Of a stretch of 64,000 nucleotides of DNA, positions 50,134-57,983 are shown piece by piece. Positions within the stretch are counted from its first letter, which is position 1; each line of letters opens with the position of its first letter. A program made the translations under genes and the position numbers. The DNA is from a bacterium. Lineage in GTDB: Bacteria; Zhuqueibacterota; Zhuqueibacteria; Residuimicrobiales; Krinioviventaceae. The notes under the pieces were generated by a model. It was not told the DNA's origin. It saw only the letters and a list, made by a program, of their open reading frames with translations, and ran no database searches. The stretch covers positions 2,208,001 to 2,272,000 of the forward strand of contig CAXXMD010000002.1 of NCBI GenBank assembly GCA_963675755.2, given 5' to 3'.

Positions 50134-53100
50134 TTAATTGCCTTTACCACAGCAATTTTTATATTTTTTCCCACTTCCACAGGGACAAGGCTCATTTCTA
50201 CCAACTTTATTGGTATTAATCACCTGACGCTGCTTACCCGCCGGACGTCCCGGTGTGGGTTGGGCCTGTGCTTTACCCTTGGGTGGAGCCATTACCTGTT
50301 TAAACAACTCTACCTGAGAATGAGATGTAGATACCTTTTGCGGTTCGGCACGTCTCATTTCCCGTTCTTCAAGCTCACCACCAACATCCAGTACGCGGAA
50401 AAGAGTGCTTACAATATCTCTGTTTGTACTGTCAATCATTTTTACAAACATTTTGTAAGCTTCGCTCTTGTACTCAATCAATGGATCTTTTTGGCCATAA
50501 CCGCGCAATCCAATACCTTCACGCAGTTCATCAACACCACTCAAATGCTGACGCCAGTTCTCATCAATTTTTTCAAGTATATAATACCGCTCGTATCTGG
50601 CTACCATAGATTCGCCAATCTCATCTACACGGCGTCGGTAAATACTTTGTGCCCAACTACTCAGAATATTCATCACCGTATTGGGATCCATTGCCTCACC
50701 ACTTTCATCGTGCAGGCGTGGCGATTGTCTGAATACCAGACGGCATTCCGATTCCAAACGACGAATCTGGGTAGCATCAAGATCATCATTATTACCCAGC
50801 ACACCGCTGATCATCTGATAGATTGTATCATCGATCATGGTTAAAACAGAATCAAAAACAATATCTGTACTGAGCCGTTCCTGATGGTAACGCTCAACCC
50901 GGTCTGCATAGGTTTTATAGAAACTCAAACCCCATGCAACCAGTTCTTCTCGATACGAGTTTAATGTTTCACGTTCACGAGATGCCGGCAGAATCTTGTC
51001 CGGTTTTCCCATAAACATATTCTGAAAACTTGATGCCAGTAGCTGTTGTGTTGATTCGGCATCTTTGTTTTCTTTGATAACATTTTCAAACCTTGCAATA
51101 ATAGAAGATTCTATCAATTCTTCAATGGATGTATTGGCAAGTAACAATTGGTTATATACGGAAATATTTTCTCGTAAATGCTCCAAATAGGTATTTCTTG
51201 CCCATCGCATTGTCTGGTTAACAAGATCAGGCCAGTCTTTCAAGGCTTCAGCAGGTTCAAATGCTTTACCAAATACACCCTGCAAAAACTCTGCCTGTTT
51301 TCCTTCCAGTTCTAAAACATCCCGGCTGTGGTAAGCAGATGCCTGAATAAAACTGTGTTCAACTATTGCATTAATATATTGTACAGATGAAAAATAGCCC
51401 AGAATACGGTTACGATACAACATTTCATCCTTGGCGGTAATTGCCAGACCGTCAAGCCATTCCTGAACTTTTTCAATTACTTTTTCTCGTCGAATGGTAC
51501 GCATCTCATTTTCACCAATGGGCGGACGCTGCATAAATATCTTTTCAAGATCACTTAAAAAGTTCTCTGAATTCCAGGTTGCCGCTGGCGCATCAATTGG
51601 TAAATGACGATTAACCAAACCATTTACATAAATTTCCAGAAAAGTGTTCAACGGAATGGTTTTAAAAAGAATAAGGTCTATTGCTTTTTGCCCGTTTTCT
51701 ACCTGAGAATTATAAACAGATGCAGCCCATTCTTTCAATTTTGATTCAAAAGCATCAGCAGTATCAATATTGCTATTCTCAAGCCAATCTGGTTTTTGCT
51801 CAAAAATACGCTCCATTTCATAACCAATGCCTTCAATATTCCATTTTGAAATATCTCGGGTACCAGCGTTATGCAGTCTTATTTTCAACAATACCAGCTC
51901 ATCTATAATATCTTGAATATTACAATACCCGGTAATACGGTGACGTTCCTGCATTTGATAGAGGTGGCGCTGTTCTTTCAACTTTTCATCAACCCAGGTT
52001 CTCAAAGTCTCCCGAACACCACTAACATCCTGGCTTTCAAGTTCAGATTTGGTAAAATCAGGTTCTGCACCAAAATACCGTTTCAGATTTTCAAACAATT
52101 CATCCAGTTTCCAGGTTGAACGATCATCTTCTTCATCAATAAAGCGTTTGATCTTGGCTTCTACAAAATCTTCCGGCTGTGCAAAACCCAGCAGGTTTTG
52201 TCGTCGTTTATATATAATCTTTCTTTGTTCATTCAATACGTCATCATAATCCAGCAAATGCTTACGGATTTCAAAGTTGCGTTCTTCAACTTTTTTCTGA
52301 GCGCGTTCAATGGATTTTGTGATCATAGAGTGCTCAATGCGCTCTCCCTCATCCATACTGCCTAAACGACTCATAATATTTGTAATGCGGTCAGAACCAA
52401 ACAGACGCATGAGATCATCTTCCAATGACAGATAAAAACGTGAAGAACCCGGGTCTCCCTGACGTCCTGCACGACCACGTAACTGCCGGTCAATTCGACG
52501 GGCTTCGTGTTTTTCTGAACCAATGATCTGCAAACCACCTTTTTCAATCACATCTCTGGTAAGCTTGATATCCGTACCACGACCCGCCATATTGGTCGCA
52601 ATAGTTATAGATCCCGGTAGACCCGCTTTGGCAACAATTTCAGCTTCGTTTTTATGATACTTGGCATTCAATACCGTATGAAAGCGTCCCGATTCCAGCT
52701 CTTTAGTAACATCACCCTTTTTCAGCCAGTTGGCAACAGGAATACCGCGCTGGGTAAACAAATTACTCAGATGCTGAGAAACATCAACTGAAACCGTACC
52801 AATCAGAACCGGTAGTCCTTTTTCATGATACTCTATGGTATCTTTAATGATTGCATCATACTTTTCAGCCTTTGTTCGATAGATCACATCATTCATATCA
52901 TCACGAATAACCGGTCTATTGGTTGGTGCAACAATAACATCCAGCTTATAAGTGCTGTAAAATTCCTGCGCTTCGGTTTCGGCGGTACCGGTCATACCTG
53001 CCAGCTTATTATATAATCTAAAGAAATTCTGCAAAGTAATGGTAGCCAGTGTCTGACTTTCGGCCTGTACTTCAACACCTTCTTTGGCTTCCAACGCTTC

Positions 53101-56100
53101 GTGCAATCCGTCACTGAAACGGCGTCCCGGCATTAAACGACCGGTAAACTGGTCAACAATCATAACCGCTTTATTTCCACGTTTTGCACCGGTACGTCTT
53201 AATTCATTATCTTCCACAGCCTTGACCACATATTCAACATCGTTATGATAAAGGGTATATGCACGCAGCAACTGGGATATATTTTGAACGCGTTCTTCCA
53301 CGCGGTTATAATCCTGCCAGATCTTGTCACGCTGCTGTTCCAGCATTACACGTGGACGTCTCTCAAAATGGATGCGGAACCAGTGTTCAATCTCTTCATT
53401 ACGCATAACAAAATTCGGCATATGGGCATTAGACAGCAATTCTGTCATCTCGCGATCATCCAAAACAACATGGCGTGAACGCAAATGCGCTTTTTCTTTA
53501 GGAAGCAGTCCCTGAAGCTCTGCCCGACTGCCGGCTTTTTTAGTGCTCAACTGCATAATCTCATCGCGAAAACTCTGATACTCATCCCGGTAATTGAAAT
53601 AAGGCAATCCGCCAATCAACAATGTACGGGCGGCTTTTTCAATACCCTTGGGCATTTTGTTTTCATCCAAAACAAATAGAGCATCAATATCTACATTCGG
53701 GTCACTGGCAGCTTCTTTTAATTTATCCACAACCTGACTACGTTCAAAAAACAGTCCTTGTAGATTCTTGCGGCCGTTTTCGGTTAATCCTGAAATATTA
53801 ACAGTCGTCAATACCGGGTCTTCGGGATGCAGGGTACCACTAAACTGGAAATACCTGCGAAGCCAGCGTTGACGTTCTGTAAGGGTTTGATCCGTATCTG
53901 CCAGGTTTGTAAAGATCATCTGTATTGTATTATTGAGGCGTTCTACCTCTTCAAACCGACGAGAAGCACTGATTATCTCTGCGGGCAAGTTGAATTTTTC
54001 CTGTAGATGTGCATCCAGCTTTAACTTGTTTGACAGTTCATTTTTACCGGTGTCACGGCTCCAGGATTTAATTTCTTTATCTACATCGGCAAAGCTCGCG
54101 CCCATCAGGCGTTCCAATTCAGCGTCTGCTAATCCGGATACACGTCCATCCGCGTCAGTTTTAAAAATAGCCTCAGGTTTATCTTTATAATCACCCAGGT
54201 TTTTTTCAAAATGTCGTATTACGGCTTTACTTTCACTGCTGAAATTAGAAAGACATTCAACACCCAAAGCGGTAATGTCAAACCTGCTGGTTTCCATAAC
54301 ATAAAAATCATTGTTTGCAGGGTCTTCAAGTGTTTGAATATGTTCATACAGTGATGTTACATCTTTATCCATATCTTCTACAGCAAGAACATGAGCAGAA
54401 TAATCATAATCTGCCTGGTTTAGGGTATCATCCAACTGTTTTTGGATCTGCTGGTCACGTTCTTCAACCAGGGTTCTGTCAGGCAGTACATACAGATCAG
54501 GATTACCGCCAAGCAGAGCAATACGGCCTTTTTCTGTTATCTGATTTAAAACAGCACCATTGTCTTTAAACTCGAAATATTCCTGTTTAATGTTTTCAAT
54601 AGTGGTCACATCCTGTGTTGTTGCTGGATTTAAAAGTGCAATCAATCCATTAACAGTAGGCAGTAGCATAGGATCACCAGATTTTTGCATTGCCAATACC
54701 GCCAGCTTGCCTTCTTCCGTCAAACCGGTGATTGCGCCAAACTGTTTTTCTGTTTCAAAAAAAACATCGGTCAATTCTCTTCTTCTGTCAACAAGCGGAC
54801 GTTTCATAACCGGCTCAGCATCTACGTCTGCTTCTTCACGTACCATATCTAAAAGCTTTACAAAGGCGTCTACAATGGATTCGTCATACTTTCCGTTTGC
54901 ATTTGATTTCAGATAATCAATACCTGCCGGGGCCATACTATTCACAGCCCGATCCATCTTTTTTGTCATATCGTAAAATTGACGCCAGGCAGAGGCCTTG
55001 TCGCCTTTATTGTTTTGCAAACGTGTATTAACTTCTTCAGGCAAATCGTTCAATTGAAGAGCAAGCTGTTCAATGGGTTCAAACTCAGACTCGGCAACTC
55101 CGGATTGTATACCAATAAGGGCAGCTTTACCCGCAAGGGTCAGGCCATTACAGGTGCCTGTAATGGAATCATGTGTAAAATAGATGGAGCGGTTCTTTTG
55201 CTCACTGAGCTTTTCAAGCGTTGCGCTCAATTCATCCAGCTTTTGAATTTTATGTACAATATCCTGATCACGACCACCCGAGAGGAATATACGTCCCTTT
55301 TCGGTAATGTCTATAACATGGCTTTTTTCGTCAATGGTAAAATACAAATCGGCATCAATTTCACCCATTTGCTTATTAACTTCATATTGGCCCTGAATTC
55401 GCTCAATCAATTTCTTGACCCAGAATTCCGAAGTCAACAGTTCAAGCAGTTCCTTGTTTTTAGGATCTCCACGATGTACCTGAAGGATCTTGATACCTGC
55501 CTGCTCTTCTTCATTCTCGAGCAATTCTTTGCCTTCCCGCAACAGTTGCTGTACCAGTTCGTTTTGTCGTTTTGCCAGGTTCTCTACAGTGGGTTTTAAT
55601 TCTTTGTAAATATTCTTGGGTGCGCCAACAGCTCCCGAGATAATAAGCGGGGTTCTGGCTTCATCAATTAAAACACTGTCCACCTCATCCACAATTGCGT
55701 AATGTAATGGACGCTGAACAACAGACCAGACATCCTGAGCCATATTATCACGCAAATAATCAAAACCAAACTCGTTGTTGGTACCATACGTAATATCGGC
55801 ATGATATGCCGCGCGGCGTTCTTCAGGAGATTGATCTCCAAAAATTGCGGCTACGGTTAATCCCAAAAATTTGTAAATCTCGCCCATCCATTCACAGTCA
55901 CGTTGGGCCAGATAATCATTAACAGTGATAAGATGCACACCCTTGCCTTCTAACGCATTCAGATACAAAGGCATAGAGGCTACAAGGGTTTTACCTTCAC
56001 CCGTTGCCATTTCTGCTATTTTTCCTGAATGCAGAATCATACCACCCAATATCTGCACGTCATAAGGGATCATGTCCCATTCTATCTCCTGCCCTCGTAC

Positions 56101-56364
56101 AATCCATTTTTTACCACGCAGCCGTCTACATGTATCCTTGACAACAGCAAAGGCCTCGGGCAAAATATCATCAAGAGTTTCCCCCATACGTAATCTATAT
56201 TTAAATTCGTTGGTTTTCGCTTTTAACTCATCATCAGACAAATGCTCATATTCTTTAGCATATTCATTCACCGTACCAACTAGTGGTTCTAGCCGTTTAA
56301 CTTCACGTTCGGTGCTTGTGCCTCCCATAACCTTGGAAAGCATTTTTTCAATAGACTTTAACAT
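50134..56364 (-). CDS. secA: Protein translocase ATPase SecA, giant 2076-aa form with internal repeat expansions
   Basis: [76 protein letters not shown] motif [19 protein letters not shown]. Confidence 0.97.
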
Positions 56365-56530: not shown

Positions 56531-57052
56531 TTAAGCGGGCAAATCCTGTTTATCCAGGCATCCTCTACCGGTTTTTTGTATTTGATTGTTCTTTTTCAAA
56601 CTTTCATAAACAGCATCCAAAATCCCGTTAATAAAACCACCGCTCTTGTCCGTACTATACAGCTTGGATAATTCGATAGCCTCATCAATGGAAACTTTGG
56701 GTGGTATATCATTAAAATTCATAAACTCACATATCGCAATACGCATAATAATGCGATCAATAATTGCAATACGTTCAAACTTCCAATTGGTGGAATGGTC
56801 CCGAATATTTTGATCCAGAACTTCCCGTTGGTCATATGTTTGGCGAATCAATTGTTTGGTAAACTGGGTAATTGTATTATCTACAACATCCTTACCCAAA
56901 ACCAGAGTCAAAACCTGCAGAACAGAATTGCCAGAGAGTTCCAGGGCATATAAACCCTGTAAAGCTGTCTCTCTGGCTTTTCTACGACTTGCGGGGGGTG
57001 AAATTAATTCAATTTCATCATTATTTTCAATAAACATGGTATAAAAGAACAC
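56531..57052 (-). CDS. nusB: Transcription antitermination factor NusB
   Basis: RRKARE..LQ.LY, W...RIA.IDR, PPKVSIDEAIEL, FINGILD; true start may be ATG 57037. Confidence 0.95.
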   Translation of the reverse strand: MFFYTMFIENNDEIELISPPASRRKARETALQGLYALELSGNSVLQVLTLVLGKDVVDNTITQFTKQLIRQTYDQREVLDQNIRDHSTNWKFERIAIIDRIIMRIAICEFMNFNDIPPKVSIDEAIELSKLYSTDKSGGFINGILDAVYESLKKNNQIQKTGRGCLDKQDLPA

Positions 57053-57053
57053 C

Positions 57054-57983
57054 TTATAAAGTTATAAAATCATGCCAATTGTAAATATCATCACACTCGC
57101 CGTTGATATATTCAAAATAGCGTTTCTGTATCTTTTCTGTAATTTCGCCCCTGCTACCACTGCCAATAGGAATTCTATCAACAGAACGAACCGGGGTAAT
57201 TTCTGCCGCAGTACCTGAAAAGAATATTTCATCTGCCAGGTACAGCATTTCGCGAGGTATTTTAGTTTCCACTACAGGAAGATCCATTTCTTTAGCAATG
57301 GTAAACACACAATCACGTGTTATACCCAATAAAATACTGGAATGTATTGCCGGCGTATATATCACACCATCACGTATCACATAGATATTCTCTCCGCTGC
57401 CCTCACTGACATAACCCTGAACATCAAGCCCAATACCTTCAGAAAAACCATTCTGGGTTGCTTCGGTTTTGATCAGTTGAGAGTTCATATAGTTAGAGCC
57501 TGCTTTGGCCATAGAAGGCATTGTATTGGGTGCCAGTCGGTTCCAGCTCGCAACACCAACATCCACACCGTTAACAATTGCCTCTTCACCCAGATAACGT
57601 CCCCAATTCAGACCGCCAATTATCACTTCTACCGGGCATTTGGAAGCATCCACACCCAGACTATGATACCCACGGTAAACAAGCGGACGTACATAAGCTG
57701 ATTCAAATTTATTTACTTTGATTGTTTCTTTACATGCCTCTACAATTTCTTCCTGTGAAAAGGGAATAGGCATACGATATATTTTAGCAGAATCAAACAA
57801 TCGTCTGATATGCTCTTTTAATCTAAAAATACTGGGACCGTTTGGTGTTTTGTAACAACGCATGCCTTCAAAAACACTGGTTCCATAATGCAGAACATGA
57901 GACATGACATGGACATTTGCATCTTTCCACGCTACAAACTCACCATTCATCCATATTTTGCCCTGTTCATCTCTGGGATCCAT
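57054..57983 (-). CDS. ilvE: Branched-chain amino acid aminotransferase
   Basis: LHYGTSVFEGMRCY, AKAGSNY, EGSGEN, LLGITR, GTAAEITPV. Confidence 0.96.
   Translation of the reverse strand: MDPRDEQGKIWMNGEFVAWKDANVHVMSHVLHYGTSVFEGMRCYKTPNGPSIFRLKEHIRRLFDSAKIYRMPIPFSQEEIVEACKETIKVNKFESAYVRPLVYRGYHSLGVDASKCPVEVIIGGLNWGRYLGEEAIVNGVDVGVASWNRLAPNTMPSMAKAGSNYMNSQLIKTEATQNGFSEGIGLDVQGYVSEGSGENIYVIRDGVIYTPAIHSSILLGITRDCVFTIAKEMDLPVVETKIPREMLYLADEIFFSGTAAEITPVRSVDRIPIGSGSRGEITEKIQKRYFEYINGECDDIYNWHDFITL

What the first reader, a model, noticed from the sequence alone, without database searches (positions are those of the whole stretch)
53330..55350. About nine divergent copies of the PPXD hairpin-helix motif inside SecA
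The single PPXD motif Y/F-x-I/V-DEK-x4-LTExG recurs serially: [154 protein letters not shown]...[32 protein letters not shown]. The copies are separated by helical linkers. The NPDLYVLPD and DY...[12 protein letters not shown] landmarks of FCB-type SecA are pushed apart, giving about 670 aa where far less is normal. No DNA-level repeat is evident by eye, suggesting an old, selected amplification. Since the PPXD forms the preprotein clamp, a multimerised PPXD could alter substrate capture (inference).
Basis: partly seen in the sequence, partly recalled or inferred. Interest (0 to 1): 0.8.

Follow-up and report, generated by a model that had tools for sequence, protein, structure and literature searches.

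The report
Giant SecA with multiplied clamp domains
The cell's only SecA protein-export motor is twice the normal size because two small structural modules beside its signal-peptide binding groove were each copied many times long ago and kept by selection, an architecture that appears not to have been described.

Summary
The region lies in a 2076-aa secA (window 50134-56364, minus strand), the only SecA in a 98%-complete genome. All nine quoted strings exist. AlphaFold2 predicts strand-strand-helix at all nine sites. Eight of nine unit profiles land on the single canonical hairpin of 23 normal-length sister SecAs. Units u7 and u9 are weak by sequence.

Sister orders have one hairpin and 72 aa where this protein has 687 aa.

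Not in the finding: the helical wing domain is also multiplied, about six times. Both arrays occur throughout one order (35 of 36 genomes), with no intermediates. They show no DNA repeats and dN/dS of about 0.05.

PPXD and HWD flank the signal-sequence site, so an enlarged preprotein-docking surface is the likeliest role. That is inference only.

Other SecAs over 1865 aa with different inserts exist, some labelled Anaerolineae, Armatimonadetes or Planctomycetota.

This is a new variant of a known kind. None of my seven literature searches returned a paper describing it.

The parts
50134..56364 (-). secA ORF, 2076 aa, the only SecA in the genome
   Evidence: Pfam hits: SecA_DEAD, SecA_PP_bind, P-loop_SecA, SecA_SW, SEC-C. 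NCBIfam: PRK12904 972.5 bits (cut-off 814) and TIGR00963 910 bits (cut-off 800).
55363..55584 (-). Helical subdomain before the first hairpin (aa 261-334). It is shared with the normal sister SecAs and absent in E. coli SecA.
55273..55344 (-). u1 (aa 341-364): the canonical PPXD beta-hairpin plus helix, nearly invariant in the family (0.95 mean identity)
   Evidence: Aligns to the E. coli SecA hairpin in PDB chains and to the sister SecA hairpin at P 6e-14. Predicted strand-strand-helix. Conservation.
55111..55182 (-). u2 (aa 395-418)
   Evidence: hhalign u2-u4 P 1e-4. Recruited by HMMER iteration in 44 of 44 sequences at i-E<=1. Predicted strand-strand-helix.
54901..54978 (-). u3 (aa 463-488)
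   Evidence: hhalign u3-u8 P 5e-4 and u3-u1 P 1e-3. Hits the sister hairpin at P 6e-4. Predicted strand-strand-helix.
54685..54762 (-). u4 (aa 535-560)
   Evidence: hhalign u4-u5 P 9e-6. HMMER iteration 44 of 44 at i-E<=1. Predicted strand-strand-helix.
54505..54579 (-). u5 (aa 596-620), followed by the NPDLYVLPD landmark. It keeps the downstream context of the ancestral hairpin.
   Evidence: hhalign u5-u1 P 2e-6. Hits the sister hairpin at P 1.3e-5. 13 of 24 residues identical to u1.
54250..54306 (-). u6 (aa 687-705)
   Evidence: hhalign u6-u1 P 1e-5 to 2e-5. Hits the sister hairpin at P 3e-4. Predicted strand-strand-helix.
54103..54168 (-). u7 (aa 733-754), the unit with the weakest sequence support
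   Evidence: By sequence only u7-u9 at P 1e-3. Its top hit on the sister SecA profile is not on the hairpin. Predicted strand-strand-helix.
53758..53853 (-). u8 (aa 838-869), a hairpin with a longer loop
   Evidence: hhalign u8-u3 P 4e-4 and u8-u5 P 1e-3. Hits the sister hairpin at P 0.01. Predicted strand-strand-helix.
53617..53679 (-). u9 (aa 896-916)
   Evidence: hhalign u9-u7 P 4e-3 and u9-u4 P 0.011. Its top hit lies on the sister hairpin but at P 0.75. Predicted strand-strand-helix.
53335..53616 (-). Helical segment aa 917-1010, with no counterpart in the sister SecAs. It is the best-conserved part of the insert outside u1 and u5 (column conservation 0.65-0.76).
53089..53304 (-). Single-copy canonical C-terminal half of PPXD (aa 1021-1092)
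   Evidence: Pfam SecA_PP_bind, profile positions 53-110, E 3.5e-19.
50590..52137 (-). Helical wing domain array, six units: w1 1410-1498, w2 1499-1588, w3 1589-1677, w4 1678-1764, w5 1765-1856, w6 1857-1925

Best explanation
Anatomy and history (about 0.9 sure).
- This is the housekeeping SecA of an order-level clade; one homologue is labelled candidate division KSB1.
- The small beta-hairpin-plus-helix sub-module at the start of the PPXD bulb was tandemly amplified from one copy to nine. Each copy is followed by one to four helices.
- u1 kept the ancestral upstream context and u5 the downstream context (NPDLYVLPD).
- u2-u5 form block A (aa 362-620). u6-u9 plus a conserved 90-aa helical segment form block B (aa 630-1010).
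- In the same protein the helical wing domain was amplified to about six copies.
- Both arrays predate the radiation of the order. They have lost all DNA-level similarity, keep their length, and are under purifying selection.

Function (inference, about 0.35).
- PPXD and HWD are the two domains that flank the signal-sequence binding site, and PPXD forms the preprotein clamp (review PMC5963308, passages read).
- The two arrays therefore most likely extend both walls of that groove into a large built-in docking or holding surface for preproteins.
- No SecB was found in this genome.
- The motor core and the SecY partner are unchanged.
For: - Sole SecA: both SecA_DEAD matches in the genome lie in this ORF. 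SecY is ordinary at 453 aa. SecB was not found in a 98%-complete genome.
- Repeats: profile tile scan gives 0 hits in 49 core tiles against 32 in 31 PPXD-array tiles and 27 in 28 HWD-array tiles.
- HMMER iteration gives 0 hits in 88 decoys.
- 8 of 9 PPXD unit profiles have their top hit on the single hairpin of 23 sister SecAs. None of 14 control tiles is centred there.
- Sister SecAs of 1037-1133 aa have one hairpin and one HWD.
- Distribution: 35 of 36 same-order genomes have the split giant-type match, and 31 of those have ORFs of 2060-2166 aa. Listed ORFs in the other 114 genomes of the phylum are at most 1183 aa.
- An exhaustive phmmer search with the insert found only this family and its fragments, plus one unrelated Ig-repeat protein that I rejected.
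- Selection: block lengths are 212-239, 355-379 and 446-456 aa across 44 sequences. dN/dS is 0.050, 0.055 and 0.055 in the arrays against 0.015-0.026 in the core.
- Groove geometry: taken from PMC5963308 (passages).
Against: - u7 and u9 have only weak, mostly mutual, sequence support, and HMMER iteration never reached u6-u9. w5 is weak, and the top hits of w4 and w5 are not on the sister HWD.
- The units were not superposed in 3D because model coordinates are not exposed. The PPXD model has pTM of only 0.58, so the overall shape of the array is unknown.
- The inserted blocks diverge faster than the core: 0.38-0.41 against 0.77-0.86 mean pairwise identity.
- Nothing here tests substrate binding.
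- Giant SecAs labelled with other phyla carry quite different inserts at PPXD, HWD, NBD2 or the N-terminus. That fits 'tolerant surface sites collect insertions' as well as it fits a specific substrate role.
Confidence: 0.55

Rival explanations
1. The amplifications are real, but the arrays do not touch substrates. They would be lineage-specific outgrowths at tolerant surface positions, kept for folding or stability, or used as a scaffold for oligomerisation, membrane attachment, or ribosome or partner docking.
For: - Inner units are poorly conserved, 0.24-0.52 identity, against 0.95 for u1.
- Giant SecAs labelled with other phyla carry unrelated inserts at different sites.
- Published 'large' SecA inserts of 50 and 76 aa lie in surface loops, and their authors suggest roles in stabilising ADP/ATP binding, thermostability and new protein-protein contacts (PMC7023208, passages).
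Against: - dN/dS of 0.05 and tightly kept lengths argue against pure neutrality.
- The two domains multiplied here are exactly those flanking the signal-sequence site, and both arrays always occur together.
Confidence: 0.35
2. The units are not duplicates of the PPXD hairpin. The resemblance would be a generic strand-strand-helix pattern, or the insert would be an unrelated acquired domain.
For: - Individual P values for several pairs are only 1e-2 to 1e-3.
- No Pfam family matches aa 362-1010 apart from two chance-level rows.
- Foldseek against PDB finds nothing at E<=0.001 for the array model.
Against: - Hits are confined to the arrays and are in register.
- 8 of 9 units point to the one canonical hairpin in independent sister sequences, and the controls do not.
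- u1 and u5 share 13 of 24 residues and split the ancestral flanks between them.
- There were 0 decoy hits.
Confidence: 0.05
3. The long ORF is an assembly artefact, a gene fusion or a decaying gene.
For: None was found. Four same-order genomes show truncated ORFs of 748-1338 aa, all in fragmented assemblies except G110.
Against: - It is one uninterrupted ORF on a 2.4-Mb contig.
- The same architecture is seen in 31 full-length ORFs of other genomes and in 44 database homologues.
- It is the only SecA in the genome.
- It is under strong purifying selection.
Confidence: 0.01

Closest known systems
Normal-length SecA of the sister orders and classes of the same phylum (1014-1183 aa; NCBIfam PRK12901-like type)
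   Same: Same domain order. Same helical subdomain before the hairpin. Same landmarks: hairpin, N(D)P-x-hFVLPD, and [13 protein letters not shown]. Same SEC-C zinc tail.
   Different: One hairpin-helix instead of nine, with 72 aa against 687 aa between the hairpin and NISQLL. One HWD of about 100 aa instead of an array of about 515 aa. The giant protein scores 1096.8 bits on PRK12901, below the 1493 cut-off.
Solved SecA structures (E. coli 2fsg/5k9t, B. subtilis 3jv2/1m6n, T. maritima 4ys0/3din)
   Different: No solved SecA has repeated hairpin or wing units. The PPXD array model has no Foldseek match at E<=0.001.
Lineage-specific SecA inserts described in print: 50 aa in Thermotogales/Aquificales and 76 aa in Thermales (PMC7023208)
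   Same: They are clade-restricted, conserved and surface-located inserts in an otherwise conserved SecA (abstract and passages).
   Different: The published inserts are 50-76 aa, lie in the ATPase domain (the 50-aa one in NBD1) and are not repeats. Here about 615 aa and about 410 aa are added by tandem copies of native sub-modules of PPXD and HWD.
Other SecAs of 1865-5000 aa in public data, some labelled Anaerolineae, Armatimonadetes/Abditibacteriaceae or Planctomycetota
   Same: They are SecA proteins about twice the normal size, with inserts at PPXD and/or HWD positions.
   Different: - Anaerolineae type: normal PPXD and about 1300 aa at the HWD site, with its own roughly 63-aa GYF-x-D repeat.
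- Armatimonadetes type: about 790 aa in PPXD plus about 540 aa in NBD2.
- Planctomycetota type: about 900 aa N-terminal insert plus an enlarged HWD.
- None matches the unit HMM built here or the insert by phmmer.

Membership tests
SecA preprotein translocase ATPase | DEAD-like motor: NBD1 with Walker A, plus NBD2 | tested here: met
   SecA_DEAD E 2e-123 and P-loop_SecA E 3e-68. GEGKT at aa 122 and DEVD at aa 226.
SecA preprotein translocase ATPase | PPXD inserted in NBD1 | tested here: met
   SecA_PP_bind E 3.5e-19 at aa 1021-1092. The hairpin aligns to E. coli SecA.
SecA preprotein translocase ATPase | Helical scaffold, wing and two-helix-finger domain | tested here: met
   [not shown]
SecA preprotein translocase ATPase | Curated equivalog score cut-offs | tested here: met
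   PRK12904 972.5 bits against 814, and TIGR00963 910 bits against 800.
SecA preprotein translocase ATPase | ATP-driven translocation through SecYEG | not testable with these tools
   It is the only SecA in the genome and SecY is present. The activity itself is inferred.
NCBIfam PRK12901 (long SecA type, 1118-position model) | Score at or above the curated cut-off of 1493 bits | tested here: not met
   1096.8 bits in 5 stretches. The inserts break the match, although the landmarks are shared with sister SecAs.
Accessory SecA2 | Score at or above the SecA2 model cut-offs; a second copy beside SecA1 | tested here: not met
   All SecA2 models score below their cut-offs. There is no second SecA in the genome.
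Internal tandem domain repeat | Significant, in-register self-similarity confined to the array | tested here: met
Internal tandem domain repeat | Units share one fold (3D superposition) | not testable with these tools
   Only DSSP strings are returned.

The most novel reading that the evidence does not exclude
SecA, long treated as architecturally fixed, has an unrecognised class of 'mega-SecA' motors. In this clade both walls of the signal-sequence groove (PPXD hairpin nine times, HWD six times) were multiplied together into a built-in preprotein holding platform that takes over part of a chaperone's job. Comparable doubling of SecA arose separately in at least three other groups by different inserts.
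Probability: 0.2. Interest if true: 0.75.

Novelty: new variant of a known kind. Interest (0 to 1): 0.62.

Why it matters
SecA is one of the most studied and most conserved bacterial machines. Models of how it grips signal peptides and preproteins rest on proteins of 800-950 aa with one PPXD and one HWD.

A natural, essential, order-wide SecA carries nine hairpin-helix modules and about six wing modules beside that binding groove. It offers a natural experiment on which parts of the clamp and groove set substrate capture. It also shows that these domains tolerate, and that selection keeps, massive internal amplification.

The family is poorly annotated: sources name members 'SEC-C domain-containing protein' or 'hypothetical protein'. 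Giant SecAs in several other groups suggest a wider pattern that has gone unnoticed.

Tried and rejected
- Self-BLASTP of the insert returned only the identity hit.
- hhalign self-mode returned nothing in this version, so I used tiles instead.
- Foldseek of the 881-residue PPXD model against PDB gave nothing at E<=0.001.
- ESM Atlas search with the insert gave no usable hit.
- Complex prediction of the HWD array (aa 1406-1925) with PPXD aa 596-1010 gave 'no answer', score 0.00. It says nothing either way.
- P0050, a 3076-aa Ig-repeat protein hit at E 1.6e-6 in 8 stretches, was read and rejected as an unrelated repeat-protein match.
- HMMER iteration from u1+u5 did not reach u6-u9.
- dN/dS against three same-family or same-order genomes was unusable because synonymous sites were saturated.
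- The search of earlier findings returned nothing.
- Literature: searches returned no paper on a SecA of about 2000 aa or on repeated PPXD or HWD units. One search was badly phrased and uninformative. The del Val and Bondar survey of SecA diversity, which I recall, was not found in the library, so I could not check whether it mentions such lengths. Supplements were not consulted.
- Rows dropped: P0030 (1429 aa) and P0046 (1575 aa) were left out of alignments A1-A3 as truncated, leaving 44 of 46 hits. L011 was left out of the sister set because my script picked a wrong frame, leaving 23 of 24.
Full report
WHAT IS THERE

The finding lies inside one uninterrupted ORF, window 50134-56364 on the minus strand, of 2076 aa.
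- Pfam finds all SecA domains: SecA_DEAD, SecA_PP_bind, P-loop_SecA, SecA_SW and SEC-C.
- Two general SecA equivalog models pass their cut-offs: PRK12904 at 972.5 against 814, and TIGR00963 at 910 against 800.
- The 1118-position long-SecA model PRK12901 is matched in five pieces and falls below its cut-off, 1096.8 against 1493.
- Both SecA_DEAD matches in the organism's 6.48-Mb, 98%-complete genome lie in this ORF, so it is the only SecA.
- SecY is ordinary, with a 453-aa ORF. SecB was not found.

CHECKING THE OBSERVATION

All nine quoted peptides and both landmarks are present at aa 341-915, 621-629 and 1028-1036.

Homologue set. A word-indexed search with aa 335-1015 returned 46 proteins. 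The 44 that look full-length are 2049-2111 aa and cover the insert completely at 37-53% identity. One is labelled candidate division KSB1. I aligned those 44, leaving out two truncated ones.

Tile scan. I cut this alignment into 38-aa profile tiles and ran each against the whole alignment with hhalign. Off-diagonal hits at P<=0.005:

| Segment | Tiles | Hits |
|---|---|---|
| NBD1 | 17 | 0 |
| aa 335-920 | 31 | 32 |
| aa 921-1400 | 25 | 0 |
| aa 1401-1925 | 28 | 27 |
| C-terminus | 7 | 0 |

Of the 32 hits in aa 335-920, 30 are internal to that segment. The script counted 30 of 32 within 6 residues of some unit-pair spacing.

Best unit pairs:
- u5-u1, P 2e-6
- u4-u5, P 9e-6
- u6-u1, P 1e-5 to 2e-5
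- u2-u4, P 1e-4
- u3-u8, P 4e-4 to 5e-4
- u7-u9, P 1e-3

HMMER iteration. Starting from u1+u5, it recruited u4 and u2 in 44 of 44 sequences each at i-E<=1 (43 of 44 at <=0.05), and u3 in 3-5 of 44. There were 0 hits in 88 reversed or shuffled decoys. It did not reach u6-u9.

Single sequence. 19 of 36 unit pairs beat the 95th percentile of control segment pairs, and u1 and u5 share 13 of 24 residues.

Structure prediction. AlphaFold2 on aa 240-1120 with the family alignment (mean pLDDT 81.3, pTM 0.58) predicts strand-strand-helix at exactly the nine places. Each is followed by one to four further helices.

DNA level. No repeat exists beyond chance 18-24-nt matches.

u7 and u9 rest mostly on each other and on the predicted secondary structure.

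ARE THE UNITS COPIES OF THE CANONICAL PPXD HAIRPIN?

u1 aligns to the hairpin-helix of E. coli SecA in solved structures.

I fetched 24 normal-length SecA genes from other orders and classes of the same phylum. One was dropped because my script chose a wrong frame. All 23 kept have a single hairpin followed directly by the N(D)P-x-hFVLPD landmark.

Profiles of the nine units were then run against the profile of these 23 sequences. For 8 of 9 units the top hit fell on that one hairpin, in register:

| Unit | P |
|---|---|
| u1 | 6e-14 |
| u5 | 1e-5 |
| u6 | 3e-4 |
| u3 | 6e-4 |
| u4 | 0.01 |
| u8 | 0.01 |
| u2 | 0.11 |
| u9 | 0.75 |

The top hit of u7 fell elsewhere. None of 14 control tiles from linkers and from the wing array was centred on the hairpin.

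Alignment with four full-length sister proteins shows two insertion blocks:
- aa 362-620 (u2-u5), between the hairpin helix and NPDLYVLPD
- aa 630-1010 (u6-u9 plus helices), between VLPD and the long helix before NISQLLRAY

Hairpin to NISQLL is 687 aa here and 72 aa in the sister L003. Only this sub-module is multiplied. The C-terminal half of PPXD is single copy.

The tile scan also lit up aa 1401-1925. Cut into six units of about 89 aa, the profiles match each other:
- w1-w3, P 2e-11
- w2-w4, P 1e-7 to 7e-9
- w1-w2, P 9e-7
- w2-w6, P 4e-6
- w5-w2, only P 0.002

The top hits of w1, w2, w3 and w6 fall on the single helical wing domain of the sister SecAs (P 3e-4, 5e-4, 0.08 and 0.003). Those of w4 and w5 do not.

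The sister wing is about 100 aa and this region about 515 aa.

DISTRIBUTION AND AGE

SecA_DEAD was searched in 151 genomes of the phylum.
- Of 36 genomes in the same order, 35 show the split, giant-type match.
- Of those 35, 31 have ORFs of 2060-2166 aa and four have ORFs of 748-1338 aa that look truncated.
- The remaining genome (78% complete) shows only a 795-aa short SecA.
- In the other 114 genomes the listed ORFs are at most 1183 aa, and five genomes had no match.
- 81 further matches were not listed.
- Two genomes in the tally (G088, G144) are flagged unpublished. Both are normal-type rows and no claim depends on them.

An exhaustive phmmer search of aa 362-1010 against 1.84 billion representatives found six proteins. 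Five are this family and its fragments. The sixth is an unrelated Ig-repeat protein that I read and rejected. No intermediates with fewer copies were seen.

SELECTION

| Region | Mean pairwise identity | Length range (aa) |
|---|---|---|
| Motor core | 0.77-0.86 | - |
| u1 | 0.95 | - |
| u5 | 0.69 | - |
| Block A | 0.38 | 212-239 |
| Block B | 0.41 | 355-379 |
| Wing array | 0.40 | 446-456 |

The helical segment aa 917-1010 has no sister counterpart yet is the best-kept part of the insert, with column conservation of 0.65-0.76.

Against the same-genus genome, dN/dS is 0.050 (block A), 0.055 (block B) and 0.055 (wing array), against 0.015-0.026 in the core. Comparisons with three more distant genomes were saturated.

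The arrays are old and under purifying selection, about two to three times more relaxed than the core.

HOW IT MOST LIKELY WORKS

Shown:
- a normal SecA motor and a normal SecY
- two arrays made by tandem copying of native sub-modules of PPXD and HWD
- the two arrays always occurring together

From the literature (review PMC5963308, passages read):
- PPXD contacts the translocating polypeptide.
- The substrate site lies between PPXD and NBD2.
- The signal-sequence site lies between PPXD and HWD.
- PPXD sits near HWD in the B. subtilis closed form.

Inference: the two arrays extend the two walls of that groove, giving a much larger built-in surface for docking or holding preproteins. No SecB was found in this genome.

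I put about 0.9 on the anatomy and history and about 0.35 on this function.

The main rival, at about 0.35, is that the arrays are scaffolds or simply tolerated outgrowths with no substrate contact. A complex prediction between the two arrays gave no answer and is not used.

COMPARISON WITH WHAT IS KNOWN

The lineage-specific SecA inserts I could find in print are 50 aa and 76 aa. They lie in surface-exposed regions of the ATPase domain, the 50-aa one in NBD1 (PMC7023208, abstract and passages).

Seven literature searches found nothing on SecAs of about 2000 aa or on repeated PPXD or HWD units. One SecA diversity survey that I recall is not in the library, and supplements were closed.

Giant SecAs are not unique to this clade, however. 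I used a sister SecA as query and searched only proteins of 1865-5000 aa. This gave 295 hits at E<=1e-10, of which the best 120 are listed. After the 44 of this family come others, some labelled Anaerolineae (about 2000-2180 aa), Armatimonadetes/Abditibacteriaceae (about 2150-2350 aa) and Planctomycetota (about 2510-2620 aa).

Landmark spacing in six of them shows different architectures:
- Anaerolineae type: normal PPXD with about 1300 aa at the wing site, containing its own roughly 63-aa GYF-x-D repeat
- Armatimonadetes type: about 790 aa in PPXD plus about 540 aa in NBD2
- Planctomycetota type: about 900 aa N-terminal insert plus an enlarged wing

The unit HMM built here hits none of them.

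This protein is therefore a SecA: the membership features that could be tested were met. It is not a member of the PRK12901 model by score and it is not a SecA2.

VERDICT

This is a new variant of a known kind. Interest is moderate to high. The function remains open.

Noticed in passing
window 50590-52137 (-), aa 1410-1925: The helical wing domain of the same SecA is multiplied to about six units of roughly 89 aa (w1-w3 P 2e-11). This was not part of the finding as given.
   Followed up: yes
P0072, P0112, P0084, P0118, P0074, P0127: SecAs of about 2000-2620 aa also exist, some labelled Anaerolineae, Armatimonadetes/Abditibacteriaceae and Planctomycetota. They carry different inserts: HWD-site array with a roughly 63-aa GYF-x-D repeat; PPXD plus NBD2 inserts; N-terminal plus HWD inserts. 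None resembles the insert here by HMM or phmmer.
   Followed up: partly
[not shown]
   Followed up: no
window 52680-52736 (-), aa 1210-1228: A 19-aa insert in NBD2 ([18 protein letters not shown]) relative to four sister SecAs. It is nearly invariant within the giant family.
   Followed up: no
L005 (G003:C12), SecA of another class of the phylum: This 1133-aa SecA has an insert of over 100 aa in NBD2 at the position where the others have a few residues.
   Followed up: no
G110, G102, G137, G139 and several other genomes of the phylum: Some genomes carry an additional short SecA-like ORF of about 795-934 aa with a contiguous SecA_DEAD match. The window's own genome has none.
   Followed up: no
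P0017, P0033, P0039, P0054-P0056: Public annotation names members of this family 'SEC-C (metal-binding) domain-containing protein' or 'hypothetical protein' rather than SecA.
   Followed up: partly
window 56531-57983 (-): ORFs of 173 aa and 309 aa lie directly upstream of secA on the same strand. By eye they look like NusB and a branched-chain aminotransferase. They were not searched.
   Followed up: no
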